From Naegleria gruberi (taxonomy: Eukaryota), in the NCBI GenBank assembly GCA_000004985.1, contig GG738862.1: a stretch of 64,000 bases of DNA. One strand, written 5' to 3'. The position numbers and the translations under genes are program-made. The notes below the pieces were generated by a model. It ran no database searches. It had not been told where the DNA came from and saw only the letters and a list, made by a program, of their open reading frames with translations. This document shows positions 29,411 to 59,918 of this stretch, in pieces (position 1 is the stretch's first letter; each line of letters opens with the position of its first letter).

Positions 29411-30763
29411 ATGTCACAACAAGAACTTGAAACCATTTATCGGGATGAAGATGTAGCCACCAATAATTCAATTATTGATAATTCATCATCCATTATTCAA
29501 ACAATTTTAATAGACGAAACTAAACAAGTAAACGAAAAAGAATTTAAACGAAAACTCCCAACTAAACATCATTTAAGAGGTAAACTCTTTTCCATAACAA
29601 CTAGATGGGGTAAATTAGAAATAACCCTCGATAACATATTATCCTTTCTAATAATGATTCTAACAATTATTTCAATGTTATCATTGTCAATTGCTTGTTT
29701 TTATTCTTCAATTCTTGTTGCCTATAGAGGAAATGAAGTTTATTTCCACATTACTAAATCAAATATTGAATTGAATCAATTGACTAGTTTAATGAAAATT
29801 ATGGTTGAGTATAAATTTATTGTGAGTGAAAATTTTGTAAAAAAAACGAATTCTAGTTTAATTAATTTATTGACATCACTTCAAGACATTAGTCTGGATG
29901 TTCAGAGAATTAATCAATTAGGATATTTTCCAAGTGATTTATCATTAATTGATTATGCATATCATATTATTTATACTATAGATGGTCATGTTCAATTCTT
30001 TTTAAGGAGATATAATTATTGGGGAATTGGAGATGAGGAAACTTATTCGAATGTTATGAGTCTAACAAATGATACTTTGATTTTATATGAGATGGTTCTT
30101 CAACTCGGTGATAAATATATTGGAGCTAAGGATGATTATATCAATGGACTATCCATTGCTGGATTGGTGTTAACTTTGATTTTATTAATTTTCATGATTC
30201 CTTTGAGTTTTTCAATTACTTTTAAAACTTTGATGAATAATGAGAAATTAATTGAAAAGTTGAAAAGAGTTGATGCTAAGGGAGTTAAGGAAACTATTTT
30301 GGATTCACATTTTGGACCACAATTCAAAGAATATTGTAAACAAAATAGAGAATTACGATATTTTCTGTTTTTGGAAAGATCAATTCAATTTACAGAATAT
30401 TGTGAAAATATTTACAATCTTGATCATAATACAGAACTATTTCTAGAAGATCCAAATGATATTCCAAATATTGAGAATGAAATTGACAAGTGGCAGTCCA
30501 AAAAGTGTGAAATTATCTTTGAAATCAAAACAGAATTTCTAAGCTCAAAAGGTGAACATTTTCTTGGTGAAAAACAAATTGGTGGGAAGAAAGAAATTCA
30601 AAAAGTGAAATTGGAATTCAAATCCAATCCAATGAATTTATCTGACAATTTATTAGATGAAATTGAATCGAATATTTCCATACATTTATATTCGACTTTT
30701 AAATCATTTCAATCCAAGCAAAAACAGAAAAGATCATTTTACAATATTTCAATACAACAATAA
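29411..30763 (+). CDS. receptor-like two-transmembrane protein with a C-terminal RGS-like domain (tandem family member 1)
   Basis: The topology is shared by all six paralogs. A short basic N-terminus ('KRKLPTKHHLRGKLFSITTRWGKLEI') leads into TM1. A variable, glycosylated ectodomain follows, then TM2 ('IAGLVLTLILLIFMIP'), then a conserved C-terminal domain. That domain reads 'FKEYCKQNRELRYFLFLERS...KCEIIFEIKTEFLSSKGEHFLGEK' and resembles the RGS box (F..FL..E.SEENL.FW...E.F ... I...M..DSY.RFL). Confidence 0.55.
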   Translation: MSQQELETIYRDEDVATNNSIIDNSSSIIQTILIDETKQVNEKEFKRKLPTKHHLRGKLFSITTRWGKLEITLDNILSFLIMILTIISMLSLSIACFYSSILVAYRGNEVYFHITKSNIELNQLTSLMKIMVEYKFIVSENFVKKTNSSLINLLTSLQDISLDVQRINQLGYFPSDLSLIDYAYHIIYTIDGHVQFFLRRYNYWGIGDEETYSNVMSLTNDTLILYEMVLQLGDKYIGAKDDYINGLSIAGLVLTLILLIFMIPLSFSITFKTLMNNEKLIEKLKRVDAKGVKETILDSHFGPQFKEYCKQNRELRYFLFLERSIQFTEYCENIYNLDHNTELFLEDPNDIPNIENEIDKWQSKKCEIIFEIKTEFLSSKGEHFLGEKQIGGKKEIQKVKLEFKSNPMNLSDNLLDEIESNISIHLYSTFKSFQSKQKQKRSFYNISIQQ

Positions 30764-30784
30764 TTATAACAATTGTATTCTCAC

Positions 30785-31273
30785 CTACTTGTTAATGATT
30801 TTATAGTATTGTGCATAAGAAACATCAATTTGAAGGCTTGTTGCCCTCCTAGATTTTTGTTCTGAAACAAAATAAGTGTGGATATCAAATTTCCTTGGTC
30901 GGTAATGAAACATGAGTACACTATTAATTTCTTGCAAAGTTTCGGTATCAATTGGTGTATAGTCTAATTTGAAGGAAAATGAGCGTCTTCCAATCCTTGT
31001 ATGTTCTGTAATTTCCTTGTTAATCCGTTCTACAATCTTTAGAATTAGTTCTGAGTGTTGTTCGAATAAACTTTGCATAGCCATTTGATTGCAAATATCA
31101 CCTCTACAAATTGGGTTAGGTAAACCAGATATTTCCAATGGTTGTTCCGGGTCATTTTGATACCTGTTGTTAGATAGATATCCTAGTTGATAAATGATGA
31201 TAGTCAAAGACACCACCAGAATTATTTCTGTTAATTTCATTTTTTTAAATATTGAGCGAACGTTCGCTCTCAA
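30785..31273 (-). CDS. hypothetical small secreted or type-II membrane protein
   Basis: A 162-aa ORF with an N-terminal hydrophobic anchor 'IILVVSLTIIIYQL'. I recognise no domain. Confidence 0.4.
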   Translation of the reverse strand: MRANVRSIFKKMKLTEIILVVSLTIIIYQLGYLSNNRYQNDPEQPLEISGLPNPICRGDICNQMAMQSLFEQHSELILKIVERINKEITEHTRIGRRSFSFKLDYTPIDTETLQEINSVLMFHYRPRKFDIHTYFVSEQKSRRATSLQIDVSYAQYYKIINK

Positions 31274-31445
31274 TTTTTTAAAAATAGGTTTTCACAGTTC
31301 AAAGCAAAAATATATTCATATGTTGGGATTACAATTTATTGAACTTCAAATGATTTAGGGTAGAGAGAGTTTTTTGGAGCACTATTTCTTTTTGTGTTTC
31401 GTCCAGTTCTTTAAACGAAACTCTAATCAACACATCCAATAAAAA

Positions 31446-32744
31446 ATGTCAGCAGAACATCCACAAGTCCAAACATCAACAAATTCATTGATAGAGCTTG
31501 AAGAGAAAGCACTCTTTCATTCACCATCCACTCCATCTACTACATTTCATCAACAATTTACCACCGGAAAAGTTTCGAATAGAAAGAAACGAAATTTTAT
31601 CATCAATACGAAATATGGAAGCATAGAACTGAGTATTGAAAGAATATTATCTTTCATTGTCATGTTTATTGCTGTAATTTCACTTTTCATTCTTACAATC
31701 ATTACATTTTATGCATTCGTCTTGAGAGCATATGGTGAAACATATGTTTATTCCTATGGAACCGAATCATTAGTATATTCTAATAGATTTTCTACCTACT
31801 TAACAATAATTCTCAATTCTAATAATGTTACTATAGATAATGGATGGTTATTTAAAATCAATTATACATTCTCACATTATGAGGAATCGATAGGATTTAC
31901 AGCTCGTTACAATGCTGATTCCAGTAAATTTGGGAAAGAGAATTTACCTGTAATGGTTCTGTATTTACAGAATAGTGGAAGGGATTATCAATATTTGTAT
32001 AGTTTATTGGTTAGTAATAAGAGTAGAGCAGTAGAGTATTCGAATCATTTTGTTTCGAATTTGAATAACGCAACTAGAGAATATTTAGAGAAGGCACTAT
32101 ATGAAAGTGATAAGAATGATGCTATTGAGACCCTTTATATGGATTCGACAGCTATAATTGGAACCATACTATGTGGATTGGCTCTGTTAATTATACTTCC
32201 GACCGGTTTTATTGCTACTTTTGGAAGAAATAACAAATTATTGGAAAAATTACAAAAAGTCAATGCAAAGGAGGTCTTGAAGACGGTGTCTGATACATAT
32301 TTGAATACTTCCTTTAAAGAATATTGTAAAAATCATCAACAATTGAAATATTTTCTATTTTTAGAAAAATCATTACTTTATTCAGAATATTGTGAAGAAA
32401 TATTTAATTTAAATTCAATTGAAAATTACTTAAATGGTACCAATACCAATTCTATAGAAACTAGAATTGATGAATTTGAATCTAAAAAGTGTGAAATTAT
32501 CTTTGAAACCATGATTGAGTTTCTCAGCTCAAAAGGTGAATATTTTCTTGGTGAGAAACAAATTGGCGGGAAGAAATTAATTCAAAAAGTTAATAAGGAA
32601 TTCAAATCTAATCCAATGAATTTACCAGAAAATTTATTAGATGAAATTGAATCGAATATTTCAATTTGTTTAATTTCAACACTCAAGTCATTTCAATCCA
32701 CGCAAAAACAAAAGAGAACTCTTTACAATTTTTCAAAACAATAG
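31446..32744 (+). CDS. receptor-like two-transmembrane protein with a C-terminal RGS-like domain (family member 2)
   Basis: Same architecture as member 1. The C-terminal 150 aa are nearly identical to members 3 and 4 ('KLLEKLQKVNAKEVLKT...FKEYCKNHQQLKYFLFLEKSLLYSEYCEEIFNLNSIENYL...KCEIIFE'). Confidence 0.55.
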   Translation: MSAEHPQVQTSTNSLIELEEKALFHSPSTPSTTFHQQFTTGKVSNRKKRNFIINTKYGSIELSIERILSFIVMFIAVISLFILTIITFYAFVLRAYGETYVYSYGTESLVYSNRFSTYLTIILNSNNVTIDNGWLFKINYTFSHYEESIGFTARYNADSSKFGKENLPVMVLYLQNSGRDYQYLYSLLVSNKSRAVEYSNHFVSNLNNATREYLEKALYESDKNDAIETLYMDSTAIIGTILCGLALLIILPTGFIATFGRNNKLLEKLQKVNAKEVLKTVSDTYLNTSFKEYCKNHQQLKYFLFLEKSLLYSEYCEEIFNLNSIENYLNGTNTNSIETRIDEFESKKCEIIFETMIEFLSSKGEYFLGEKQIGGKKLIQKVNKEFKSNPMNLPENLLDEIESNISICLISTLKSFQSTQKQKRTLYNFSKQ

Positions 32745-32774
32745 TCAACTTGAAGAGTTTGAGGAATTCTTACT

Positions 32775-32895
32775 CTATATATATTTTGAGTAGTGAGATC
32801 ATAAAACTCTAAATGAATTCCTTGCTATTATTACGAAGATATCATTGATTGATGGAAGAGGAAACCACTTGAATCATCGTATCAGTAAACACCAA
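32775..32895. repeat. dispersed, non-coding repeat of about 120 bp (copy A)
   Basis: About 85% identical to 34455-34570: '...gagtagtgagatcataaaactctaa...attacgaagatatcattgattgatggaagaggaaaccacttgaatcatcgtatcagtaaacacc'. Confidence 0.6.
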
Positions 32896-32990
32896 GCCAT
32901 ACTGAACCATACTGATGTGGCCCGATGATTCTTTGAGGCGCTCATCGTGATATGGTTAAAAGTTTGCTGATGTGTTACTGTACAATCAGC

Positions 32991-34403
32991 TTATTTTCTT
33001 AGTGATGTTAATTGTTTCATTTCACTTAAATATTTGGCTCCTTTATCACTAATTTCATTGTTATAAATATAAAGTAATGTCAGTTGTTTCATTTCACTTA
33101 TGTATTTGGCCCCTTCATCACTAATTTCATTGTAACCAATATTAAGTGATGTTAGTTGTTTCATTTCACTTATATATTTAGCTCCTTTATCACCAATTTG
33201 ATTGTCATAAATATAAAGCGATGTTAATTGTTTCATTTCACTGATGTGTTTGGCTCCTTCATCACTAGTTTCATTGTTAGAAACATTAAGTGATGTTAAT
33301 TGTTTCATTTCACTTAAATATTTGGCTCCTTTATCACTAATTTCATTGTTATAAATACAAAGTGATGTCAATTGTTTCATTTCACTGATGAATTTAGCTC
33401 CTTCAACAGTAATTTCATTGTAACCAATATTAAGTGATGTTAGTTGTTTCATTTCATTTATATATTTGGCCCCTTCATCACTAATTCGATTGTTAGAAAT
33501 ATAAAGTGATGTCAATTGTTTCATTTCACTTATGTATTTGGCTCCTTCATCACTAATTCATTGCTACCAATATTAAGTGATGTTAATTGTTTCATTTCAC
33601 TTATATATTTGGCTCCCTCTACACCAATTCGATTGTCATAAACATTAAGTGATGTTAATTGTTTCATTTCACTGATGAATTTAGCTCCTTCATCACGAAT
33701 TTCATTGTTAGAAACATTAAGTGATGTTAATTGTTTCATTTCACTGAAATATTTGGCTCCTTCATCACCAATTTCGATTGCTACCAATATTAAGTAATAT
33801 TAATTGTTTCATTTCACTTATATATTTGGCTCCTTTATCACTAATTTGATTGTAATATATATTAAGTGATGTTAGTTGTTTCATTTCACTTATATATTTG
33901 GCTCCTTCATAACCAATTAGATTGTGAGAAATATCAAGTGATGTCAATTGTTTCATTTCACTAATGAATTTGACTCTTTCTCTCGAGCCAAGCAAATATC
34001 CAGAAAATTCAACATTAACAATACTATTCCTAAATTGACTTTTCTTGAATAATTTAATTCTTTTCTTTGTAAATTTGTTTTTAAATTGAATAACAAGTTT
34101 TGAACGTTCCTTGATCACATTAAAGAATTGTTTTGAAATTAAAGTGCAATTATTTAAAATAAACCACGAATCATCAATCATTGAAATTATTTCAAAACAA
34201 ATATCATCTGAAAATATTTCTTGTCGCTGGAGTTTCACAAATTTTTTCTTCTGTTTTGCTTTCACCATATTATTATGGTCAATTGTGAATATTTCCTCCG
34301 AATTATTCGTATGATGATTTTCAAAATCTTGACTGTTTCGTTGACCCATTTTTTTAAATTTGAATGATTTAGAGAAATTGTCTGATATTTTAACAATCGG
34401 CAT
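32991..34403 (-). pseudogene. F-box / RNI-type LRR protein gene made of 72-bp tandem repeats and interrupted by two frameshifts (either a pseudogene or assembly errors within the repeats)
   Basis: The N-terminal ORF 33765-34403 has an F-box-like 'IFSDDICFEIISMIDDSWFILNNCTLISKQF'. About 14 copies of a 24-aa unit 'ISEMKQLTSLNIGYNEISDEGAKY' follow, spread over three ORFs in different frames. A 1-nt deletion relative to sister repeats is visible near 33553 ('aattcattg' versus 'aatttcattg'). Confidence 0.55.
33000..33990. repeat. 72-bp tandem repeat array (about 14 copies) encoding 24-aa LRR units
   Basis: The unit '...gatgttaattgtttcatttcact.atatatttggctcc.tcatcactaattt.attgt...' recurs with a 72-nt period. 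Copy-to-copy identity is high, with third-position and indel variants. Confidence 0.8.
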
Positions 34404-34454
34404 TGGAAAGCACTACTGCATAACAAAGTGATCTAATTATTGAAGGAAGTTAAA

Positions 34455-34570
34455 GACACTCTATATTTGAGTGGTGGGATCATAAACTATATAGTACTAT
34501 TATTACAAAGATATCATTGATTGATGGATGAGGAAATTACTTGAATCATCGTATCAGTAAATACACCATC
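34455..34570. repeat. dispersed, non-coding repeat of about 120 bp (copy B)
   Basis: '...gagtggtgggatcataaactatat...attacaaagatatcattgattgatggatgaggaaattacttgaatcatcgtatcagtaaatacacc', a copy of the 32775-32895 element. Confidence 0.6.
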
Positions 34571-35824
34571 CCTCAATCTATTTTTCAGTTTTTCAGTCAT
34601 AGTCTTCATATTCAAAGAATGAGTAAAATAATCCTCTCTCCAATAAATTATATCAAGAAATTCAGAAGTGATGGATAATTTGGAATCTCCTTTAATATTG
34701 CTAGTTGTGTAGATGGGTGTCAGAATGAAAAACGAGTTACTAACCAAGTCATTCATTCGATAAATTGTTGAATTGTTGATAACTATGAAAAATTCTCTAC
34801 CCGAAGAATAAATTCTGCATGATTTGATAGTTTCAGGTTTCTTTCTTATTAGTTTCGTAATTTCAATCTTGTGATTTTTTGGGGAATAAATATGGAACTT
34901 GTCTAATTGAAATTCAATGTAAAAAACACATATTATTATGAGGAAACTTACTTGTTAATAGAGCTACTCCATTATATGTAGAAGCAATATCAATAACAAA
35001 TTCATTAGTATTTGAATCTGGTAGTGGAAACTCTTTCAACGAATCCCCAAATTCACTTCCACAACAAAAAACCTTTCCATCATTTGTAAGGGCCACAGTT
35101 TTATGATCTCCATTTACAACCTTTACAAAAAATGGTTTAATACTCTGCTGTTCATCTAAATTACATTCCATAATTCTTTTTTGAGAAAGGTTTGAGATTT
35201 GACTTGTTGATTGACCTGTTTCTCCAAATTTATTACATCCACTAGCCAATAGTCTTCCTTTGGATGTTAAATAAACAATAGTTGAAGATGCACATGAAAT
35301 AAATCTAACAAACTCATCCATTTCCAAACAATTTTCAAAATCCAAAATTTCATGCCAATCTCTAATGTCAAATGTTGGCGTAATTGATTTTTCAAATGAT
35401 AATTGATCAAATGATTCAGTTTCTCCACGATAAAGTTTAACATTCTCTCCAAAATAACCACTACCAGTATATATATATTGTATCCAAACACTTTCGTCTT
35501 ACATGTCACTCTATTCTGTACCAATAATAAGATATTACAATAGGAGGCACTAATTTCAATAATTGTTTCATTCCTCCGATCAGTAATAAATGGTAATTCT
35601 AATTTCCACCAAATTCCCTTCCTATACATGAATAATTCATCATCTTTGGTTACCACATAACAATAAAATAATCGGAAGAGAATAAACTTGATTGGTGCAA
35701 AACGACCAATAAAATCAGAATTTTCTATTTCACTCTTATTTCCACTCAAATTTATATCGGGATAGAATGAGACGAATCGATCGGATTTTTGTACAGTTTC
35801 AATTATTGTTGATGAATCAAACAA
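34514..35824 (-). CDS. RCC1-like repeat protein. The gene model is fragmented by unresolved introns and/or frameshifts.
   Basis: The ORF 34914-35345 contains RCC1-type blades ('LLASGCNKFGETGQ', 'VVNGDHKTVALTNDGKVFCCGSEFGDSL'). A GTAAGT donor follows '...ALLTS'. The flanking ORFs at 35267-35824 and 34514-34756 are probably additional exons. Confidence 0.4.
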
Positions 35825-36145
35825 GTAAAGGAAATTGACAGGTTGCTTGTGGAGCCATTTTTTTTTCTTCTTAGATTTTAATAATTTTAGAAATCAAAAA
35901 AGTAATGATAATATTTAATTGATGAAGATGTGTGGTTAGCAAGTTGCAGGCCAAAAAATTAAGTGAATCAAAATAGAATTAAGGTGACCACTTACGACTT
36001 TCTAAATGCAATTCGAGTAATTTTTACTTCTTTCGTTCTCGTTAATGTCATGATCTTACTATTTTACTAATTTACCTTCAAGAGCTTTCTTTTTTAGGAA
36101 GATATCATCGAGCTAATCAACTTGCGCAGCGCCACATGAAAAAAA

Positions 36146-37432
36146 ATGACTTTAAATCCATCGACGTCTACATTTGAATTATCAGTGAAGATTGAACCAC
36201 ACAATGCACCACTTCATCAATTCAACAATAACAATAACAACAATAAAGAAACAACAAATAATTACTTTTCGGAAAGAAAAAAACGAAAATACAAGATTAA
36301 TACGAAATGTGGAAGTATTGAATTTGACATTGAAAGAATATTAACTTTTCTAGTCATGTTTGTGGTTGTTGCTTCTCTTCTTGGTTTGGCTATAATGAGT
36401 GGATTTGGTTTCATTCGAAGTTATAAAGAATTAAGTGTTTACTATTATGGTGGTAAATCAACAGGTTATTCTATTGAATTATCAACATATATGAGAATAG
36501 TATTATCTTCTGATATAATAATTAATGACAGATGGCTTTTAAAAATCAATTCAACTTTTGAGAATTGGTTGTATGCTTCTGAATGGGCAATTTTTCATTC
36601 TTTCTATGTTGATTATTATGAAATTCAATTACCACAAATAGTTAAAGACATTCAGAAAGAATATGAACACTTGTACAATTCACTACTATTACAAAATATT
36701 AACAAGACAAGTCAATTTCAATATTTTCAAAATGAATTTGTGAAAAGTGTTGAAAGTTTCAATGTGGATTATCTTTTGAGTGCTTATAGATATAGTCTAG
36801 CTATTAATGAAAGAGAATCAAGTTATATTGTCATTACTTCTATAATTGGAACTATTGTTTGTGCCTTGATATTACTAATTATACTTCCAACTGGTTTTAT
36901 TGCTACTTTTGGAAGAAATAACAAATTATTGGAAAAATTACAAAAAGTCAATGCAAAGGAGGTTTTGAAAACTATAAATGATCCTTATTTGAACGATCCA
37001 TTTCGGAAATTCTGCAAAGAAAATCAAAAACTTAATTACTTTCTATTTTTGGAAAAATCATTACTATATTCAGAATATTGTGAAGAAATATTTAATTTAA
37101 ATTCAATTGAAAATTACTTGAATGATAGTAGTACCAATTCTATAGAAACTAGAATTGATGAATTTGAATCTAAAAAATGTGAAATTATCTTTGAAATCAA
37201 AACTGAATTTCTAAATTCGAAAGGTGAATATTTTCTTGGTGAAAAACAAATTGGCGGGAAGAAAGAAATTCAAAAAGTGAAATTGGAATTCAAATCCAAT
37301 CCAATGAATTTATCTGATAATTTATTAGATGAAATTGAATCGAATATTTCAATTTGTTTAATTTCAACACTCAAATCATTTCAATCAAATCTTAAAAATA
37401 AGAAATTCATCTCAACCAAGTCGTTACAATAA
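36146..37432 (+). CDS. receptor-like two-transmembrane protein with a C-terminal RGS-like domain (family member 3)
   Basis: Same architecture. The ectodomain carries 'DRWLLKINSTF', shared with members 2 and 4. The cytoplasmic tail has roughly 130-nt blocks that are near-identical to member 1 at the nucleotide level. Confidence 0.55.
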   Translation: MTLNPSTSTFELSVKIEPHNAPLHQFNNNNNNNKETTNNYFSERKKRKYKINTKCGSIEFDIERILTFLVMFVVVASLLGLAIMSGFGFIRSYKELSVYYYGGKSTGYSIELSTYMRIVLSSDIIINDRWLLKINSTFENWLYASEWAIFHSFYVDYYEIQLPQIVKDIQKEYEHLYNSLLLQNINKTSQFQYFQNEFVKSVESFNVDYLLSAYRYSLAINERESSYIVITSIIGTIVCALILLIILPTGFIATFGRNNKLLEKLQKVNAKEVLKTINDPYLNDPFRKFCKENQKLNYFLFLEKSLLYSEYCEEIFNLNSIENYLNDSSTNSIETRIDEFESKKCEIIFEIKTEFLNSKGEYFLGEKQIGGKKEIQKVKLEFKSNPMNLSDNLLDEIESNISICLISTLKSFQSNLKNKKFISTKSLQ

Positions 37433-37547
37433 ACAACATTTGTTTCAATTATTTAGTTGTAAGTATTGTCGACAGCGCTATCCATTTCCAGAATATTTTA
37501 AATTTCCGTTTTAGGAAGATATTCATCCGAAACCTGTCATAAAAAAA

Positions 37548-38831
37548 ATGTCCACACCAACAACAAGCTCTTCAACATTGGAGTTGTTAGAAGAGGATTC
37601 TTCTCCCTCTCGGAAACAACAAGATCAATTCAATAATAATAACAAAAACAACATTATTTTGCCATCATCAACATATAAACTTTCGAATAGAAAGAAACGA
37701 AAGTTTATCATTAATACTAAATGTGGCAGTATTGAAATGAGCATTGAACGAATATTAACATTCCTAATCATGTTCATTGCCATATTTTCACTTTTCATTC
37801 TTTCAATTATTACAATCTATGCATTCTTCTTGAAAAATTACAATGAACATTCAATTTACAAAACATCACATCAAACTATTCAACATTCGAATAGATTATC
37901 TACTTATTTTCATATCATTTTATCAACTAATATTACAATAGATGATAGATGGTTATTAAAAATTAATTCTACTTTTATGGAATTTAAAGAAAAAGCATTA
38001 TTTGGAGCACTTTATTATTTTGAAATTTCCAATAATGGAAATGAATATATTAGACCAATGGAAATTGTTAAAATTGAACAAGATTATAATTATTTATATG
38101 AATTATTAACTAAAAATAAGAAAGATTTGGAATTTTATAAAAATCAATTTATTTATGGAATTGAAAATTATGTACAAAATTATTTGGAAATTGCTTTGAA
38201 GAAAAGTGATAAAAATGATGAAATAGAAACTATTTTTATGTATTCTACTGCTATAATTGGAACTATAATATGTGGATTGACTTTATTAATTATTATTCCA
38301 ACTAGTTGTATTGCCTTAATTGGAAATAATAACAAAATTATGAAAAAATTACAAAAAGTGAATGCAAAAGAAGTTTTAAATTTTATTTCAGATTCTTATT
38401 TGAATATTTCCTTTAAAGAATATTGTAAAAATCATCAACAATTAAAATACTTTCTATTTTTGGAAAAATCATTACTATATTCAGAATATTGTGAAGAAAT
38501 ATTTAATTTAAATTCAATAGATAATTACATCACTAATTCCAATACTAACCTGAGTGAAATACAAATAGATAAATTTGAATCTAAAAAATGTGAAGTTGTC
38601 TTTGAAATTATTACAGAATTTCTAAATTCGAAAGGTGAATATTTTCTTGGTGAGAAACAAATTGGCGGGAAGAAATTAATTGAAAAAGTTAATAAGGAAT
38701 TCAAATACAATCCAATGAATTTATCTGAAAATTTATTTAATATTATTGAATCAAATATTTCAATTCATTTATTTCCAACACTTAAATTATTTAAATCTAA
38801 TAGAAAGACTATTCCTAATCTAACAAATTGA
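37548..38831 (+). CDS. receptor-like two-transmembrane protein with a C-terminal RGS-like domain (family member 4)
   Basis: Same architecture, with 'DDRWLLKINSTF' in the ectodomain and 'FKEYCKNHQQLKYFLFLEKSLLYSEYCEEIFNLNSI' in the tail. Confidence 0.55.
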   Translation: MSTPTTSSSTLELLEEDSSPSRKQQDQFNNNNKNNIILPSSTYKLSNRKKRKFIINTKCGSIEMSIERILTFLIMFIAIFSLFILSIITIYAFFLKNYNEHSIYKTSHQTIQHSNRLSTYFHIILSTNITIDDRWLLKINSTFMEFKEKALFGALYYFEISNNGNEYIRPMEIVKIEQDYNYLYELLTKNKKDLEFYKNQFIYGIENYVQNYLEIALKKSDKNDEIETIFMYSTAIIGTIICGLTLLIIIPTSCIALIGNNNKIMKKLQKVNAKEVLNFISDSYLNISFKEYCKNHQQLKYFLFLEKSLLYSEYCEEIFNLNSIDNYITNSNTNLSEIQIDKFESKKCEVVFEIITEFLNSKGEYFLGEKQIGGKKLIEKVNKEFKYNPMNLSENLFNIIESNISIHLFPTLKLFKSNRKTIPNLTN

Positions 38832-39186
38832 AAATATTAGTATTCTAATTAAGAAGACTCTTCTGAAGTTGATCACTAATTTAGTTTGATAGATCTTTAA
38901 TTTAACAATCAAATAGTATTTAGTCAACTCAATTACTCTTTAAGAATTTAAAATTCAACTATGAAAATTGAAAGTACATAATCATGATTACAATCCTCGT
39001 AGTTCGTAGTGTAAAACATTTTCAAGACACTTGTCTCTTTTATTCTTCAATTGTAACAACCATTAGCTATATAGAGATAGTTTCCATACCAAGGAAAAAT
39101 GACATGTTGACATTTGGTATCTTTTATAGACATTTGACCACCACATAAGCCAACAATCACGATTGCGATATCTTTCACTAAAAAAA

Positions 39187-40716
39187 ATGTCTCTTCAACA
39201 TGCTCTTCAACAACAAAGCAATTCAATTACCTTTGTTGAAATGGAGAATCTTCTCATCACCTTGAATATCGATAGTACAAATCAACTAGAACAACAAATA
39301 ACATCAACAATATTATCTTCCTTACCTTCTGCACATTTAAATAATTCAACTTCTATAACAACAACAACAGGTAGTTCACAACAGTTGTCAACTTTTAAAT
39401 ATTTTGATCAGAGTACAAGTAGTAGTACTTTGATAAAAATTATTGAGGAAGGAAATAATGATGGTGTTAATATTAATAAGAATATATCAATTCAACGAAA
39501 GAAGGAATTTATTATAAAAACTAAATGTGGTCAATTGGAATTGACATTTGACAGAATATTGGCATTTATTATCATGTTATTGGCAATTATAACATTATTA
39601 ATATTAGTAATATTATCTACTGGTACTATTTTCTTGCAAACTAATACAGAAAACAAAACTTTTAATAACTTTACAAAAGTTACAAAAAATTTAATAAGAT
39701 TGAATGCATATTATACTATTTTAATGGAAAGTAAATTAGATGAATTATTGATTGAGGAAATTAATGAAACAATGATTGATGTTAAAGTGGATTACAACAA
39801 GTTATTAATTGATATTCCTTATTATGGAAATACTGCTCAATATAGTAGGTCCAGAGTTGTTACAATTTTAAATAGAAATTTTAAATCTTTGGAGAGTAAT
39901 CATAATTATATTTATAATGAGATTATAGTAAATAATTATACAGATACTAAATTTTTCTATTCGAATTATCATCCTAGTTTAGTCAATTTCACACAAAGTT
40001 TAGACCTAGCTCTGATACTTGCTGATAAGGCTGCAAGTAATGAAGATGAATATATGAATATAAATGCAATCATTGATTTGTCTCTAGTTGGATTTGTATT
40101 GATAATCATAATTCCATCAATTGGTCTAATTTTAATCAAGTCAGCTGTCAATGACAACAAATTTATGGAAAAATTACAAAAAGCAGATGCAAGAATAGTG
40201 ATTGAAACAATTGCAGATCCTAGATATCAATCATATTTTAAAGAATTATGTAAAGAACATAATCAATTATCAAAATATCTATTTATGGAAAGAGTTCAAT
40301 TATTTAATGAAATATGTCAAAGAGTTTTCACATTACAAGATGAAATTGAAGAAGGAGTTAATCTAGAAATGAGTAAGAAAATGTTAATTGAAATTGATGA
40401 TTTAGAAGCAAAGAAATTTGAATTATCATTTGAATTAATTACAGAATATCTTGATTTAGGTAGTGATACCTTTTTAGGATTTAGATTAGTAGGTCGTAAA
40501 AGATCCATTGAGAAAATCAAAAAGATATTCGACACACAATCAATGAATTTGCCTGAAAATCTCTTCAAGAATATTCAATCAAATGTTTCATTGAATTTAC
40601 TTCCAATTTACAAATTATTTAAATCCAATCAACAACGAAAGAGAAATGAAAGAAAAATTAAAATTATTGCAAAACAACAAGACAAACATGAAATTATGAA
40701 AAATAAACAACAGTAA
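39187..40716 (+). CDS. receptor-like two-transmembrane protein with a divergent C-terminal RGS-like domain (family member 5). The likely start is the ATG at 39187.
   Basis: The sequence opens 'MSLQHALQQQSNSITFVEMENLL...', passes TM1, a roughly 190-aa ectodomain and TM2, then reads 'FKELCKEHNQLSKYLFMERVQLFNEICQRV...ELITEYLDLGSDTFLGF'. Only members 5 and 6 share the ectodomain motif 'YSNYHPSLVNFTQSLDLALILADKAASNEDEYMN'. I prefer the ATG in the AAAAAAAATGTC context over the upstream non-ATG ORF start at 39163. Confidence 0.5.
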   Translation: MSLQHALQQQSNSITFVEMENLLITLNIDSTNQLEQQITSTILSSLPSAHLNNSTSITTTTGSSQQLSTFKYFDQSTSSSTLIKIIEEGNNDGVNINKNISIQRKKEFIIKTKCGQLELTFDRILAFIIMLLAIITLLILVILSTGTIFLQTNTENKTFNNFTKVTKNLIRLNAYYTILMESKLDELLIEEINETMIDVKVDYNKLLIDIPYYGNTAQYSRSRVVTILNRNFKSLESNHNYIYNEIIVNNYTDTKFFYSNYHPSLVNFTQSLDLALILADKAASNEDEYMNINAIIDLSLVGFVLIIIIPSIGLILIKSAVNDNKFMEKLQKADARIVIETIADPRYQSYFKELCKEHNQLSKYLFMERVQLFNEICQRVFTLQDEIEEGVNLEMSKKMLIEIDDLEAKKFELSFELITEYLDLGSDTFLGFRLVGRKRSIEKIKKIFDTQSMNLPENLFKNIQSNVSLNLLPIYKLFKSNQQRKRNERKIKIIAKQQDKHEIMKNKQQ

Positions 40717-41045
40717 CTTTTCCATTATTCGACTTTTCACATTATTTCCTTTTTGAGCTCATGGTCAACTGGTTCTTTTATTAACAATTATTCCATTAAG
40801 AGAACAAATTATCAGCAATCACACAATAAGAATGTTACTTTACACAACTTACAATATCCACTAGAATCGGAATTAGAATCTTTTATTTATGCGATTCTTA
40901 TTTGAGCCAGCAAATCATTTTGGAATCTTTCACTTTACGAACTCTATTTTACCTTTTTAGATGTTTTTGGAATGTTAAACTACTATTTTCAATTTGCAAT
41001 ATTGACATCCATGAATCTTTCACACAGTCAATTAAACACAAAAAA

Positions 41046-42527
41046 ATGTCTCTTGACGAAACTGTTCGAAACAATGAAATTAATCTTGTTGAAATGGAGA
41101 ATGTTTTATATTCAATGAAGATTGATACTGAACAACAATTTTATGAATCAACTTCAACTCAACAAGATGCCTTCAATTCTTCATCTAATAATAATAACAA
41201 TATTGATAATACACAGTTGACTAGTAATAATAAACCTTTACAACAAACTAGTAATACAATAGTTAAAATTGAAGAAGGTCAACAAGAATATAACACTAGT
41301 GTAACAATACCACCTAAAATTCCAAAACAAGATCAACAATATATTATAAATACCAAATATGGACAATTACAATTATCATGTGATAGAATAATATCAGTAT
41401 TAATCATGTTATTAGCAATTATTACATTATTTATGATGGCATTTCTATCTGCATGTACTTTAATATTAGAAACTAATACTGAAAATAAAACATTTAATCA
41501 CACAACTCAATTATCAAAGAATTTAATAAGATTAAATACTTATTACAAAATTATTATGGAAAGTGAAATTGTAGAGTTGTTAGTTGAGGAAATTAATGAA
41601 ACAATGATTGATGTTACAAGTGATTATCATCTATTATTAAGAGATGTACCTTATACTGGTAACACTGATAAATATAGTAGGGCAAGTGTAATTACTAGAA
41701 TTGGAGATTATTTTAACATATTGGAAAGTAATCATTTTCATCTTTATAATCAAGTTATTGAAAATAATTATACAGATACTAAATTTTTCTATTCGAATTA
41801 TCATCCAAGCCTAGTCAATTTCACACAAAGTTTAGACCTAGCTCTGATACTTGCTGATAAAGCTGCAAGTAATGAAGACGAATATATGAATTTAAATGCA
41901 ATTATTGATCTTGTATTATCTGTATTTGTATTAATTATTATAATTCCATCAACTGCTATATTACTTATCAAGTCAGCTGTCAATGACAACAAGTTTTTAG
42001 AAAAATTAAAAAAAGCAGATGCAAGAGTAGTGATTGAAACAATTGCAGACATAAGATTACAGAATGAATTTAAAGAATTATGTAAAGAACATAATCAATT
42101 ATCAAAATATCTATTTATGGAAAGAGTTCAATCATTCAATGAAATATGTCAAAGAGTTTTCGCATTACAAGATGAAATTGAAGAAGGAGTTAATCTAGAA
42201 ATGAGTAAGAAAATGTTAATTGAAATCGATCAATTGGAATCTAAAAAATTTGAATTATCATTTGAATTAATTACAGAATATCTTGATTTAGGTAGTGATA
42301 CCTTTTTAGGATATCCTTTAATAGGTGGAAAGAAAGCAGCGGAGAAAATCAAAAAGATATTCGATACTCAATCTGTTCACTTACCTGAAAACTTGTTTAA
42401 AAATGTTCAATCAAATGTTTCTTTGAATTTACTTCCAATTTACAAATTATGTAAATCCAATCAACAACGAAAGAGAAATCAACGAATGAAATTAATGAAG
42501 AAACAACAATTAGCAACGACACAATAA
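41046..42527 (+). CDS. receptor-like two-transmembrane protein with a divergent C-terminal RGS-like domain (family member 6). The likely start is the ATG at 41046.
   Basis: A close paralog of member 5: 'MSLDETVRNNEINLVEMENVLYS...', with the same tail motifs. The ORF extends upstream to 40902, but AAAAAAATGTCTCTT at 41046 matches the start context of the other family members. Confidence 0.5.
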   Translation: MSLDETVRNNEINLVEMENVLYSMKIDTEQQFYESTSTQQDAFNSSSNNNNNIDNTQLTSNNKPLQQTSNTIVKIEEGQQEYNTSVTIPPKIPKQDQQYIINTKYGQLQLSCDRIISVLIMLLAIITLFMMAFLSACTLILETNTENKTFNHTTQLSKNLIRLNTYYKIIMESEIVELLVEEINETMIDVTSDYHLLLRDVPYTGNTDKYSRASVITRIGDYFNILESNHFHLYNQVIENNYTDTKFFYSNYHPSLVNFTQSLDLALILADKAASNEDEYMNLNAIIDLVLSVFVLIIIIPSTAILLIKSAVNDNKFLEKLKKADARVVIETIADIRLQNEFKELCKEHNQLSKYLFMERVQSFNEICQRVFALQDEIEEGVNLEMSKKMLIEIDQLESKKFELSFELITEYLDLGSDTFLGYPLIGGKKAAEKIKKIFDTQSVHLPENLFKNVQSNVSLNLLPIYKLCKSNQQRKRNQRMKLMKKQQLATTQ

Positions 42528-57353: not shown

Positions 57354-59918
57354 ATGTCATTACACGATGATCAATTATCCTCCTCTATTACAACTCCCCA
57401 ACAAGATGATGATATTAATAATAAAGATATTGTTGATGAATTGAATAAATATGATATTAATAATAATAATATATTTGGTTATAATAAACAAATAAATAAA
57501 AAACAAATTATATATGGATGTGGTGATGGATTTTGGAAGAAACAAACCGATATAATATCAATTACTAAATTAACAAATTTTGATAAAATAGATTATTTAC
57601 AAAATTATATATTAAATGATAAAATAATTAAATTTAAATGTAAAGATCAATTATGTATATTTCTTACTAGTAATGGAAATGTATATAAAATGGGACAATG
57701 TACATTTATAAATAATTGTACAAATATTCCAACATTAATTAATAATTTTAAAAATGATAAAATTATTGATTTTTCNNNNNNNNNNNNNNNNNNNNNNNNN
57801 NNNNNNNNNNNNNNNNNNNNNNNNNNNNNNNNNNNNNNNNNNNNNNNNNNNNNNNNNNNNNNNNNNNNNNNNNNNNNNNNNNNNNNNNNNNNNNNNNNNN
57901 NNNNNNNNNNNNNNNNNNNNNNNNNNNNNNNNNNNNNNNNNNNNNNNNNNNNNNNNNNNNNNNNNNNNNNNNNNNNNNNNNNNNNNNNNNNNNNNNNNNN
58001 NNNNNNNNNNNNNNNNNNNNNNNNNNCTTTTATAGAATATAAAAAAAATGGTAAATATCAAGTTGACTATTTTTATACTTTAAATTTTACAAATATTACT
58101 AAAATAGTAAAAGAATGTAATAAAAATAAAAATATATTTATTAATAATAATAAAATACAAGATATTAAAGATATTCAATGTAATGGTATTAATACTATAA
58201 TTATTTATAATGATAATACAAATATATTATCTCCTTTATTTAATGATTATTATAATCCAATTAAAAATGAAATTATTTTAAATAAAGTTTATAATAATTT
58301 TATTTTTGAAAATGTATATCAAAAATTAATTTTAAATGAATATCAAATTTTATATTTAAATAATAATAATGAATGTAAATTTATTGATTATAATGGTAAT
58401 TTATTTAAAATGGATAATATTATAAATATGGAAAGTGGTACATTTCATAGTTTTTTACAAACTATTGATAATAAATTTTATTCATTTGGATCTAATGAAT
58501 TTGGTGAATTAGGATATAATAAGAAATTTAATGAATTAAAACAAGTTGAATTACCATTTACTATTAAGGAAGGTGATAATGTTCAAATTTGTTGTGGTAA
58601 AAATTTTACTATTTTAATACATGAAACAGATAATGATGAAATATTTAAAATTAATAATTTAATTGTAACTGATAATTTTAATTTTAATTATGAAATTAAT
58701 TCAAATTTTTATTTAAATTTAAATTTATTAAAAAATATTTCCAATGATTTTTATAATTTAATTACAAATAATAATATAATTGAATATTTAAATGAAAATG
58801 ATCAAAAAGCATTATATTATTTAATTAAAAATGCATTAATTAATTTAAATAATTTAACTAATTTAGATGAATTATTTATTAATTATGATAAATTTATAAA
58901 ATTAATTTCCTTTAATGAAATTGAATTAAATTTAGTAACATGTCTATTTATATTAAATGATATAAATGATATTAATAATGAAATTAAATTATTATTATTT
59001 AATGATCTATCAAATAGAATTAATATTGATAATATTATGAATATTTTACAAAAAGTTAATAATTATCTTTCTTTAAATATTTTAAAACAATCTAAAAATA
59101 GTATTTTATTATTATTAGCAAATAAATGTTTAGCATTTATTAAAGAAAATGAAAAATTATTAAAATCAGAAAAATTATTTGAAATTATTAAAGATAAATT
59201 ATTAAATATTAAAAAATCATTTAAACAAATTATTTATAAAATTGATAATATTACTACTATAAATGGAATTGATAATAATATTAAAAATATAAATGAATCA
59301 TTAAAATTATTATATAATAATAATGAAAATAATGATATTAAAATTATAATTGATGAAAATTCAAATGAAATATTATATTTACATAAAAGTATATTATCTA
59401 TTCATAGTCCAGTTTTAAATATTTTATTTAAAAATTTAAATATTAATGAAATTAATTTATATGAATTTATTGAAATGATGATATCAGATGAATGGATAAT
59501 TAATTTATTTAAATATTCAAATAAAATTAATGAAATATTAAAAATAATATTTAAATTATGTTATGGATATAAATTAAATAATTTAAATTTAAATAATTTA
59601 ATTGGTATTTTAATTATTTCACAACAATTAGATATTACATGGTTAATTAAATATACATGTAATTTAATTATTGAAAAATTTAATGAAATTAATGATACTG
59701 AATTTATTTTATTACTAAATTTAGTATCAATTTCACAAAATAATAATAATTGTAAAGAATTTGTTGAATATTTTAAAATATTTTGTTCAAATAATTTATC
59801 ATTTGATTATTTACAAAAAATACAATCAGTTTGTAAAGATAATCAATCATGTGATAATTTTATTAAAATTATTATTGATTATTATTTAAGAGTACATACT
59901 ATAAATAGAAAATATTAA
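57354..59918 (+). CDS. RCC1-repeat + BTB/POZ-domain protein (RCBTB-like). It contains an assembly gap.
   Basis: The N-terminal part has RCC1-like blades ('IIYGCGDGFW', 'FGSNEFGELGYN', 'VQICCGKNFTILI'). The C-terminal part has a BTB domain ('DIKIIIDENSNEILYLHKSILSIHSPVLNILFKN...INLYEFIEMM'). An N-run at 57776-58026 lies inside the CDS. Confidence 0.55.
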   Translation: MSLHDDQLSSSITTPQQDDDINNKDIVDELNKYDINNNNIFGYNKQINKKQIIYGCGDGFWKKQTDIISITKLTNFDKIDYLQNYILNDKIIKFKCKDQLCIFLTSNGNVYKMGQCTFINNCTNIPTLINNFKNDKIIDFXXXXXXXXXXXXXXXXXXXXXXXXXXXXXXXXXXXXXXXXXXXXXXXXXXXXXXXXXXXXXXXXXXXXXXXXXXXXXXXXXXXXXFIEYKKNGKYQVDYFYTLNFTNITKIVKECNKNKNIFINNNKIQDIKDIQCNGINTIIIYNDNTNILSPLFNDYYNPIKNEIILNKVYNNFIFENVYQKLILNEYQILYLNNNNECKFIDYNGNLFKMDNIINMESGTFHSFLQTIDNKFYSFGSNEFGELGYNKKFNELKQVELPFTIKEGDNVQICCGKNFTILIHETDNDEIFKINNLIVTDNFNFNYEINSNFYLNLNLLKNISNDFYNLITNNNIIEYLNENDQKALYYLIKNALINLNNLTNLDELFINYDKFIKLISFNEIELNLVTCLFILNDINDINNEIKLLLFNDLSNRINIDNIMNILQKVNNYLSLNILKQSKNSILLLLANKCLAFIKENEKLLKSEKLFEIIKDKLLNIKKSFKQIIYKIDNITTINGIDNNIKNINESLKLLYNNNENNDIKIIIDENSNEILYLHKSILSIHSPVLNILFKNLNINEINLYEFIEMMISDEWIINLFKYSNKINEILKIIFKLCYGYKLNNLNLNNLIGILIISQQLDITWLIKYTCNLIIEKFNEINDTEFILLLNLVSISQNNNNCKEFVEYFKIFCSNNLSFDYLQKIQSVCKDNQSCDNFIKIIIDYYLRVHTINRKY
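57776..58026. other. assembly gap (251 N)
   Basis: A run of N characters in the sequence. Confidence 1.

What the first reader, a model, noticed from the sequence alone, without database searches (positions are those of the whole stretch)
29411..42527. Tandem array of six receptor-like proteins: TM1, hypervariable glycosylated ectodomain, TM2, cytoplasmic RGS-like domain
Six same-strand paralogs lie at 29411-30763, 31446-32744, 36146-37432, 37548-38831, 39187-40716 and 41046-42527. They share one architecture. A short basic N-terminus ('NRKKRKFIINTKCGSIE...') leads into TM1. An ectodomain of roughly 150-250 aa follows, full of NxS/T sequons and highly diverged between copies. Only short islands are kept, such as 'DDRWLLKINSTF' or 'YSNYHPSLVNFTQSLDLALILADKAASNEDEYMN'. 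TM2 comes next. A roughly 150-aa cytoplasmic tail follows, which is well conserved. The tail reads 'F(K/R)E(Y/L)CK.(H/N).QL.(Y)(F/L)LF(L/M)E(K/R)...EYCEEIF' and later 'KKCEIIFE..EFL.SKGEYFLG'. This matches the RGS-box pattern (F..FL..EFSEENL.FW...E.F ... I...M..DSY.RFL). The family may therefore couple an extracellular sensing domain to a GAP for G-alpha subunits. The contrast between a fast-diversifying ectodomain and a conserved signalling tail is what a ligand- or self/non-self-sensing receptor family would show. F-box/LRR genes sit on the opposite strand inside the cluster. If the RGS assignment holds, this is a lineage-specific expansion of a receptor-RGS sensory system. I do not recognise it as a described family.
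Basis: partly seen in the sequence, partly recalled or inferred. Interest (0 to 1): 0.85.

Follow-up and report, generated by a model that had tools for sequence, protein, structure and literature searches.

The report
Two-pass membrane proteins with degenerate RGS tails
Six neighbouring Naegleria gruberi genes encode receptor-shaped membrane proteins whose intracellular tail has the fold of a G-protein "off-switch" (RGS) domain but has lost the residues that normally make that switch work.

The parts
29411..30763 (+). W1, paralog 1 (450 aa): hairpin motif 29594-29620, TM1 29636-29692, ectodomain 29693-30148, TM2 30149-30205, RGS-fold tail 30245-30715
   Evidence: ORF; TM segments; domain coordinates. 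The public gene model is truncated to 369 aa (P0004).
31446..32744 (+). W2, paralog 2 (432 aa; identical to P0001, an NCBI 'predicted protein'): hairpin 31602-31628, TM1 31644-31700, ectodomain 31701-32165, TM2 32166-32222, RGS-fold tail 32235-32699
36146..37432 (+). W3, paralog 3 (428 aa; NAEGRDRAFT_66405): hairpin 36296-36322, TM1 36338-36394, ectodomain 36395-36826, TM2 36827-36883, RGS-fold tail 36923-37387
37548..38831 (+). W4, paralog 4 (427 aa; no exact public protein model found): hairpin 37710-37736, TM1 37761-37817, ectodomain 37818-38264, TM2 38265-38321, RGS-fold tail 38334-38798
   Evidence: The tail of P0002 (ENA, 364 aa) is nearly identical to the W4 tail.
39187..40716 (+). W5, paralog 5 (509 aa; NAEGRDRAFT_66406): hairpin 39514-39540, TM1 39556-39612, ectodomain 39613-40080, TM2 40081-40137, RGS-fold tail 40159-40626
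41046..42527 (+). W6, paralog 6 (493 aa; NAEGRDRAFT_66407): hairpin 41346-41372, TM1 41388-41444, ectodomain 41445-41912, TM2 41913-41969, RGS-fold tail 41991-42458
30500..30678 (+). Gene-conversion tract in W1, matching W3 at 37172-37350: 8 mismatches in 179 nt, and a single mismatch in 30584-30678. The two genes are only 31-52% identical across the ectodomain.
   Evidence: Sliding-window identity and 62-nt exact tract; mismatch list; tail dS far below ectodomain dS

Best explanation
These are six tandem paralogs of a family found only in heterolobosean amoebae. The family's layout is a receptor-shaped two-pass membrane protein. A disordered cytoplasmic N-terminus leads to a short conserved beta-hairpin motif and TM1. 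An extracytoplasmic antiparallel four-helix bundle of about 150 aa follows. Its last helix continues without a break through TM2 into a cytoplasmic linker, which ends in an RGS-fold domain. In most family members the RGS domain keeps the canonical G-alpha contact residues. Those members most likely work as ligand-regulated membrane GAPs for Naegleria's self-activating G-alpha subunits, by analogy with 7TM-RGS proteins (inferred). The six window genes belong to a derived clade in which all those contacts were replaced once, in the clade's ancestor. The tail nevertheless stays under purifying selection. I therefore read them as pseudo-GAP receptors: the RGS-homology domain has been repurposed as a non-catalytic binding or scaffold module, or as a regulatory partner of canonical family members. 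The precedents are the RGS-homology domains of axin, GRK and SNX proteins. The array evolves by recombination between copies. TM and cytoplasmic parts are repeatedly homogenised by gene conversion, while the ectodomains stay outside the conversion tracts and are free to diverge. Shown here: the six genes, the topology signals, the RGS fold and homology, the loss of contact residues, the clade structure, the four-helix-bundle prediction and the conversion tracts. Inferred: ligand sensing, signalling through the TM2 helix, non-GAP function, and dimerisation.
Against: No experiment bears on these proteins, and a divergent interface could still bind a lineage-specific G-alpha. The four-helix-bundle match is fold-level only: talin rod and de novo designed bundles score equally well, and Pfam finds no sensor family in any ectodomain. 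The ectodomains of the window clade and of canonical members are barely alignable (hhalign 20%, 9% identity). Localisation at the plasma membrane rather than an internal membrane is not known. The contact-residue mapping rests on sequence alignment and on a predicted structure, not a solved one.
Confidence: 0.6

Rival explanations
1. One reading: the six proteins are active receptor-GAPs. The tail still accelerates GTP hydrolysis on a G-alpha subunit through a remodelled interface that co-evolved with one of Naegleria's lineage-specific G-alpha paralogs.
For: The RGS fold and homology are solid. The tail is under purifying selection, with new invariant motifs on the same helices. N. gruberi has a lineage-specific G-alpha diversification (PMC3971589). 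Canonical relatives with the same architecture keep all contacts.
Against: All three critical contacts are lost in all six copies: Asn128 to Gly, Asn88 to Tyr or Lys, Asp163 to Ser or Pro. Ser85, Glu87 and Arg167 are lost as well. The former contact positions vary between copies and are no more conserved than the rest of the domain. That is not what a co-evolved replacement interface would show. RGS-fold domains known to lack these residues (axin, GRK) are not G-alpha GAPs (PMC3971589).
Confidence: 0.2
2. These are not receptors at all. They are membrane-anchored RGS-homology proteins of an internal compartment such as the ER, an endosome or the contractile vacuole. The inter-TM helical bundle would be a lumenal structural or oligomerisation domain rather than a ligand sensor, loosely comparable to the membrane-anchored SNX-RGS proteins.
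Against: The inter-TM domain diverges very fast while keeping its length: 138-175 aa in 51 of 54 proteins. It is skipped by gene conversion. Both fit a diversifying recognition surface better than a structural spacer. The continuous ectodomain-helix to TM2 to linker geometry is the signature of transmembrane signalling modules. One ectodomain sequon is invariant in all six copies.
Confidence: 0.15
3. The array consists of decaying, functionless duplicates, that is, young pseudogenes that happen to retain open reading frames.
For: The RGS contact residues are lost. One copy (W4) has no exact public gene model and another (W1) has a truncated one.
Against: All six frames are intact over 427-509 codons in AT-rich DNA, where stop codons arise easily. 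dN/dS is well below 1 in the tail, the TM segments and the pre-TM1 motif. The clade also includes a dispersed N. gruberi copy (P0006) and two environmental sequences (P0007, P0008) with the same substitutions, so the state is old and maintained.
Confidence: 0.05

Closest known systems
7TM-RGS proteins (Arabidopsis AtRGS1; Naegleria fowleri Nf 7TM RGS1-4)
   Same: Both are membrane receptor-like proteins with a C-terminal cytoplasmic RGS-fold domain. They occur in an organism whose G-alpha subunits self-activate, so regulation falls on the GAP step (PMC9283941). Both belong to large lineage-specific expansions.
   Different: The window proteins have two TM helices flanking a four-helix bundle, not seven TM helices. 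The window clade also lacks the G-alpha contact residues. The Nf 7TM-RGS domains, in contrast, are experimentally active GAPs and are sensitive to the switch-I G-to-S mutation.
Bacterial four-helix-bundle transmembrane sensors (Tar/Tsr chemoreceptors, NarX/NarQ, QseE, TorS)
   Different: There is no detectable sequence homology (Pfam finds nothing), and generic helical bundles score as high. The host is eukaryotic. The output is an RGS-fold domain rather than HAMP plus a kinase or methyl-accepting domain. Dimerisation was not tested.
Non-catalytic RGS-homology (RH) domains: axin, GRK2, SNX13/14/25, p115RhoGEF
   Different: They are not related as a subfamily. The window tails derive from a heterolobosean RGS clade whose other members are canonical. 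The domain context and the partners are entirely different and, for the window proteins, unknown.
Canonical 2-TM RGS relatives in Naegleria and Willaertia (e.g. XP_002669195 'RGS domain-containing protein', FDP41_008207/8, C9374_009018)
   Same: The whole architecture is shared, including the hairpin motif before TM1 (TCCGxxE in relatives, TKCG/TKYG here) and the inter-TM length. They are homologous over the tail at E 3e-22.
   Different: The relatives keep 5-6 of 6 G-alpha contacts and match Pfam RGS. The window copies keep none and fall below Pfam detection. The relatives have a long low-complexity insert in the RGS domain that is short in the window clade.

Membership tests
RGS-fold superfamily (Pfam PF00615 / RGS box) | Significant sequence-profile match to the RGS family | tested here: inconclusive
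   A direct hmmscan of the six proteins gives no PF00615 hit even at E <= 10, and the window-tail profile gives no PDB hit. Transitively the link is strong. The tail profile finds 54 relatives, 42 of 51 of these match PF00615 with best E 7.8e-12, and hhalign of window against canonical tails gives 99.5% and E 3e-22.
RGS-fold superfamily (Pfam PF00615 / RGS box) | All-helical RGS-box fold superposable on solved RGS domains | tested here: met
Catalytically competent RGS GAPs (R4-like, as in RGS4) | Asn128-equivalent that orients the G-alpha catalytic Gln (switch II) | tested here: not met
   It is Gly in all six copies and in P0006-8 (invariant 'FLG'). It is Asn in 33 of the 47 relatives. Its role is taken from PMC8252600.
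Catalytically competent RGS GAPs (R4-like, as in RGS4) | Asn88- and Asp163-equivalents that hold switch-I Thr182, plus Ser85, Glu87 and Arg167 | tested here: not met
   N88 is Tyr or Lys, D163 is Ser or Pro, S85 is Gln, Glu or Lys, E87 is Lys, Arg, Asn or Ser, and R167 is Ser or Leu. That is 0 of 6 retained in every window copy. There is no excess conservation at these positions.
Catalytically competent RGS GAPs (R4-like, as in RGS4) | Measured GAP activity or AlF4-dependent G-alpha binding | not testable with these tools
   This needs recombinant tail domains and Naegleria G-alpha subunits, as was done for Nf 7TM-RGS proteins in PMC9283941.
7TM-RGS receptors (AtRGS1 type) | Seven transmembrane helices N-terminal to the RGS domain | tested here: not met
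   There are two hydrophobic segments per protein, and most of the 54 relatives also have two. The AlphaFold model shows two membrane helices and a soluble bundle between them.
Bacterial 4HB sensor domains (4HB_MCP / TarH / NarX-type) | Sequence-family membership | tested here: not met
   No Pfam sensor family matches any window copy at E <= 10, or any of 51 relatives at E <= 0.01.
Bacterial 4HB sensor domains (4HB_MCP / TarH / NarX-type) | An up-down four-helix bundle of about 150 aa between two TM helices, with helix 4 continuous with TM2 | tested here: met
Heterolobosean 2-TM RGS family (defined here) | Pre-TM1 hairpin motif, TM1, about 150-aa bundle, TM2, C-terminal RGS-fold tail; restricted to Naegleria and Willaertia | tested here: met
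   All 20 named relatives among the 30 looked up are from N. gruberi, N. fowleri, N. lovaniensis or Willaertia magna.

The most novel reading that the evidence does not exclude
Heterolobosean amoebae have a second class of receptor-GAPs that is not 7TM. In it a bacterial-chemoreceptor-like module (TM1, four-helix bundle, TM2) directly controls an RGS domain acting on self-activating G-alpha subunits. The window array would be a pseudo-GAP offshoot of that class. Its ectodomains diversify while its cytoplasmic parts are kept uniform by gene conversion. It might act as decoy or heteromeric modulators of the active receptors, or as a recognition-receptor repertoire signalling through a partner that is not a G-alpha.
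Probability: 0.3. Interest if true: 0.7.

Novelty: new variant of a known kind. Interest (0 to 1): 0.5.

Why it matters
Naegleria G-alpha subunits exchange nucleotide spontaneously, so signalling is thought to be controlled at the GTP-hydrolysis step by membrane-bound RGS proteins. Only the 7TM-RGS class has been studied so far (PMC9283941). A family that joins a chemoreceptor-like four-helix-bundle sensor to an RGS domain would be a different way of wiring an extracellular input to a heterotrimeric G protein. It would give a simple and tractable input-output module. The window clade adds a natural experiment: the same receptor chassis with the GAP surface erased but still under selection, which points to an unknown partner. 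Relatives occur in the pathogen N. fowleri, and they are absent from animals as far as these searches reach, so they are also of some interest as parasite-specific surface proteins. For annotation, four of these six genes are currently 'predicted protein', one model is truncated and one copy appears to be unannotated.

Tried and rejected
1. Direct Pfam scan of the six full-length proteins gave no RGS hit even at E <= 10, only noise such as TXNDC16_N, TMEM9 and STE3.
2. A profile of the six tails against PDB sequences gave zero hits at E <= 10. A local hmmsearch of the same profile against RGS4 aligned in the wrong register.
3. A full-length family profile (A3) against the PDB gave only a spurious opioid-receptor/lysozyme hit through the TM region.
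It was useless for a census, so the family size comes from the exhaustive representative search.
5. The look-up of encoding contigs for P0001 found nothing on record.
6. The afdb50 fold library was unavailable.
7. Anantharaman et al. 2011 (PMC3396428) is the paper most likely to have catalogued TM-RGS architectures. It is not held, and the supplement of PMC3971589 with TM counts is not held either. Prior description of the 2-TM class therefore cannot be excluded.
8. The first Biopython NJ bootstrap timed out, and the second had a distance overflow. The corrected run is.
9. I considered positive selection on the ectodomain and did not claim it. Ectodomain dS is 1.1-2.0 in most pairs, which is saturated, and dN/dS of 0.3-0.9 shows no excess.
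10. I considered glycosylation as topology evidence and rejected it as weak, because sequons are nearly as frequent in the tail.
11. I considered the very low GC at 58-60 kb as a foreign insertion and rejected it. It is largely a 251-base run of N plus AT-rich coding sequence of ordinary genes.
Full report
WHAT IS THERE. The window is Naegleria gruberi nuclear DNA. The ORF at 31446-32744 is 100% identical to an NCBI 'predicted protein' of N. gruberi on a 502-kb scaffold. I call them W1 to W6: 29411-30763, 31446-32744, 36146-37432, 37548-38831, 39187-40716 and 41046-42527. Each starts at the first in-frame ATG after an upstream stop. tblastn with three of the proteins and two foreign tails finds these six copies and nothing else in the 64 kb. 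The array is interrupted between W2 and W3 by opposite-strand genes. These are two LRR ORFs and RCC1-like fragments, and no F-box reached significance. The array is flanked by a lipin/LNS2 gene and a cytochrome P450.

ARCHITECTURE AND TOPOLOGY. Every copy has two strong hydrophobic segments (Kyte-Doolittle peaks 2.4-3.5) with 151-159 residues between them by those peak boundaries. The stretch before TM1 is rich in Lys and Arg (for example NRKKRKFIINTK, +6/0), and so is the stretch after TM2 (+4 to +5). The ends of the inter-TM domain are neutral or acidic. By the positive-inside rule this gives N-in/C-in, with the conserved tail in the cytoplasm. That is also where an RGS domain is expected. 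The ectodomain has 2.19 sequons per 100 aa, against 1.57 in the tail and 1.14 in other ORFs of this Asn-rich genome. One ectodomain sequon is invariant, and so is one in the tail.

IS THE TAIL AN RGS DOMAIN? Direct tests fail. Pfam gives no RGS hit for any copy at E <= 10, and a profile of the six tails finds nothing in the PDB. Indirect tests are decisive.
- An exhaustive hmmsearch of the tail profile against 1.84 billion representatives finds 54 proteins at E < 1e-3. 42 of the 51 that are not window copies match Pfam RGS on their own, with best E 7.8e-12.
- hhalign of the window tails against 17 canonical-type tails gives 99.5% probability and E 3e-22 over 154 columns.
- That canonical profile hits RGS10, RGS3, RGS8, RGS4, RGS7, RGS12 and RGS5 in the PDB in the expected motif register.
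- A canonical Willaertia tail hits all six window genes by plain tblastn at 1e-9 to 6e-19.
The fold assignment stands.

IS IT A GAP? I mapped RGS4 residues onto the family alignment. The register was checked three ways. At S85, E87, N88, N128, D163 and R167, 31 of 47 relatives keep five or six residues. All six window copies keep none: the patterns are QKYGSS, ERYGSS, KNYGSS, QKYGPL and QSKGPL. Asn128, Asn88 and Asp163 are the three contacts described as critical for stabilising the G-alpha transition state (PMC8252600). Here they are Gly, Tyr or Lys, and Ser or Pro. In a neighbour-joining tree of the tails, W1-W6 group with P0006 and two environmental sequences (P0007, P0008) at 98% bootstrap. 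P0006 is another N. gruberi gene, on a different scaffold. All members of this clade share the losses, so the contacts were lost once, before the array expanded. In canonical members the contact positions are far more conserved than the rest of the box (entropy 0.73 against 1.55). In the window clade they are not (1.39 against 1.28), so the specific constraint on the G-alpha face has gone. The tail is still under purifying selection (dN/dS 0.23-0.51), and it has its own invariant motifs. I conclude that it is an RGS-homology domain that very probably no longer acts as a canonical GAP. That some RGS domains have lost GAP activity and become scaffolds is established (PMC3971589).

HOW THE ARRAY EVOLVES. 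For the same gene pairs, synonymous divergence is two to five times lower in the tail than in the ectodomain. Examples are W2-W3 at 0.42 against 2.0 and W2-W4 at 0.56 against 1.63. Protein-level constraint cannot explain this. Sliding-window nucleotide identity shows mosaics.
- W1 and W3 are 31-52% identical across the ectodomain but 91-99% identical over the last 60 or so codons of the RGS box.
- W1 30500-30678 has 8 mismatches in 179 nt against W3, and only one mismatch in its last 95 nt.
- W2, W3 and W4 are 75-95% identical from TM2 onward, and W2 and W4 are about 81% identical around TM1, yet all are 40-60% identical in the ectodomain.
The conserved tail is thus partly a product of gene conversion between tandem copies, and conversion tracts largely stop at the ectodomain. 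This may reflect selection for ectodomain diversity, or simply too much divergence for conversion to occur. The data cannot tell, because ectodomain dS is saturated and dN/dS there (0.3-0.9) shows no excess.

CONTEXT AND NOVELTY. All 20 named relatives among the 30 looked up come from N. gruberi, N. fowleri, N. lovaniensis or Willaertia magna. Several already carry the automatic label 'RGS domain-containing protein', and two N. fowleri members are adjacent genes. Published work reports several related facts. N. gruberi has 229 RGS proteins, and RGS-TM fusions occur in most eukaryotic lineages (PMC3971589). N. fowleri has 28 7TM-RGS proteins plus 79 other RGS proteins, self-activating G-alpha subunits and active 7TM-RGS GAP domains (PMC9283941). 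I found no paper describing a 2-TM four-helix-bundle RGS class or its degenerate clade. The most relevant catalogue, Anantharaman et al. 2011, could not be read. W2, W3, W5 and W6 are annotated only as predicted proteins. The W1 model is truncated (369 of 450 aa). W4 has no exact public model, and the consecutive locus tags 66405 and 66406 skip it.

VERDICT. The proposed mechanism, a G-alpha GAP, is contradicted by the loss of every canonical contact residue checked in these particular genes. The most likely reading is a pseudo-GAP offshoot of a heterolobosean 2-TM receptor-RGS family that evolves by gene conversion with ectodomain divergence. It is a new variant of a known kind (transmembrane RGS proteins), of moderate interest. 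The broader family would be the better experimental target.

Noticed in passing
window 37548-38831: W4 is an intact 427-codon paralog under purifying selection, but it has no exact protein model in the public collection. The neighbouring genes carry consecutive locus tags (NAEGRDRAFT_66405 = W3, 66406 = W5), so W4 seems to be unannotated in the reference. The tail of an ENA protein (P0002, 364 aa) is nearly identical to its tail.
   Followed up: partly
window 29411-30763: The public model for W1 (P0004) is 369 aa and lies wholly inside the 450-aa ORF, so it omits the cytoplasmic N-terminus with the pre-TM1 motif. It is probably a mis-called start.
   Followed up: partly
window 29594-29620, 31602-31628, 36296-36322, 37710-37736, 39514-39540, 41346-41372: A conserved short motif lies immediately before TM1. 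It reads I(N/K)TK(C/Y)G..E in five of the six window copies (ITTRWGKLE in W1) and TCCGxxE in canonical relatives. It is modelled as a beta hairpin with pLDDT about 86. Its function is unknown. The paired cysteines next to the membrane could be acylation sites, but that is speculation.
   Followed up: partly
window 32991-34403, minus strand: Two LRR ORFs (177 and 212 aa) are separated by about 240 bp and share the repeat 'ISEMKQLTSLNI'. They are probably one gene with an intron or a frameshift.
   Followed up: partly
window 34914-35824, minus strand: Two overlapping ORFs lie in different frames. The downstream one has RCC1-like repeats. This is either an intron-containing gene or a disrupted one.
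   Followed up: no
window 57776-58026: A 251-base run of N (an assembly gap) lies inside an 854-codon RCC1-BTB ORF. It explains most of the apparent 12% GC at 58-60 kb. The remaining AT-rich stretch (46-60 kb) encodes ordinary genes: dynactin p62-like, SPX and EXS halves of a PHO1/XPR1-like protein, an XRN exonuclease, and pyruvate phosphate dikinase at 61296-63647.
   Followed up: yes
window 40414-40480 / 42246-42312 and 39613-40080 / 41445-41912: W5 and W6 are 94% identical at the nucleotide level over the C-terminal third of the ectodomain (the 'YSNYHPSLVNFTQSLDLALILADKAASNEDEYMN' island) but 63-78% identical in the rest of it. So conversion or very recent exchange is not strictly confined to the tails.
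   Followed up: partly
relatives P0015/P0067 (N. fowleri FDP41_008207 and FDP41_008208): Two canonical family members are adjacent genes in N. fowleri, and one alternative annotation fuses them into a 1236-aa product. Tandem arrangement therefore recurs in the family and can mislead gene callers.
   Followed up: no
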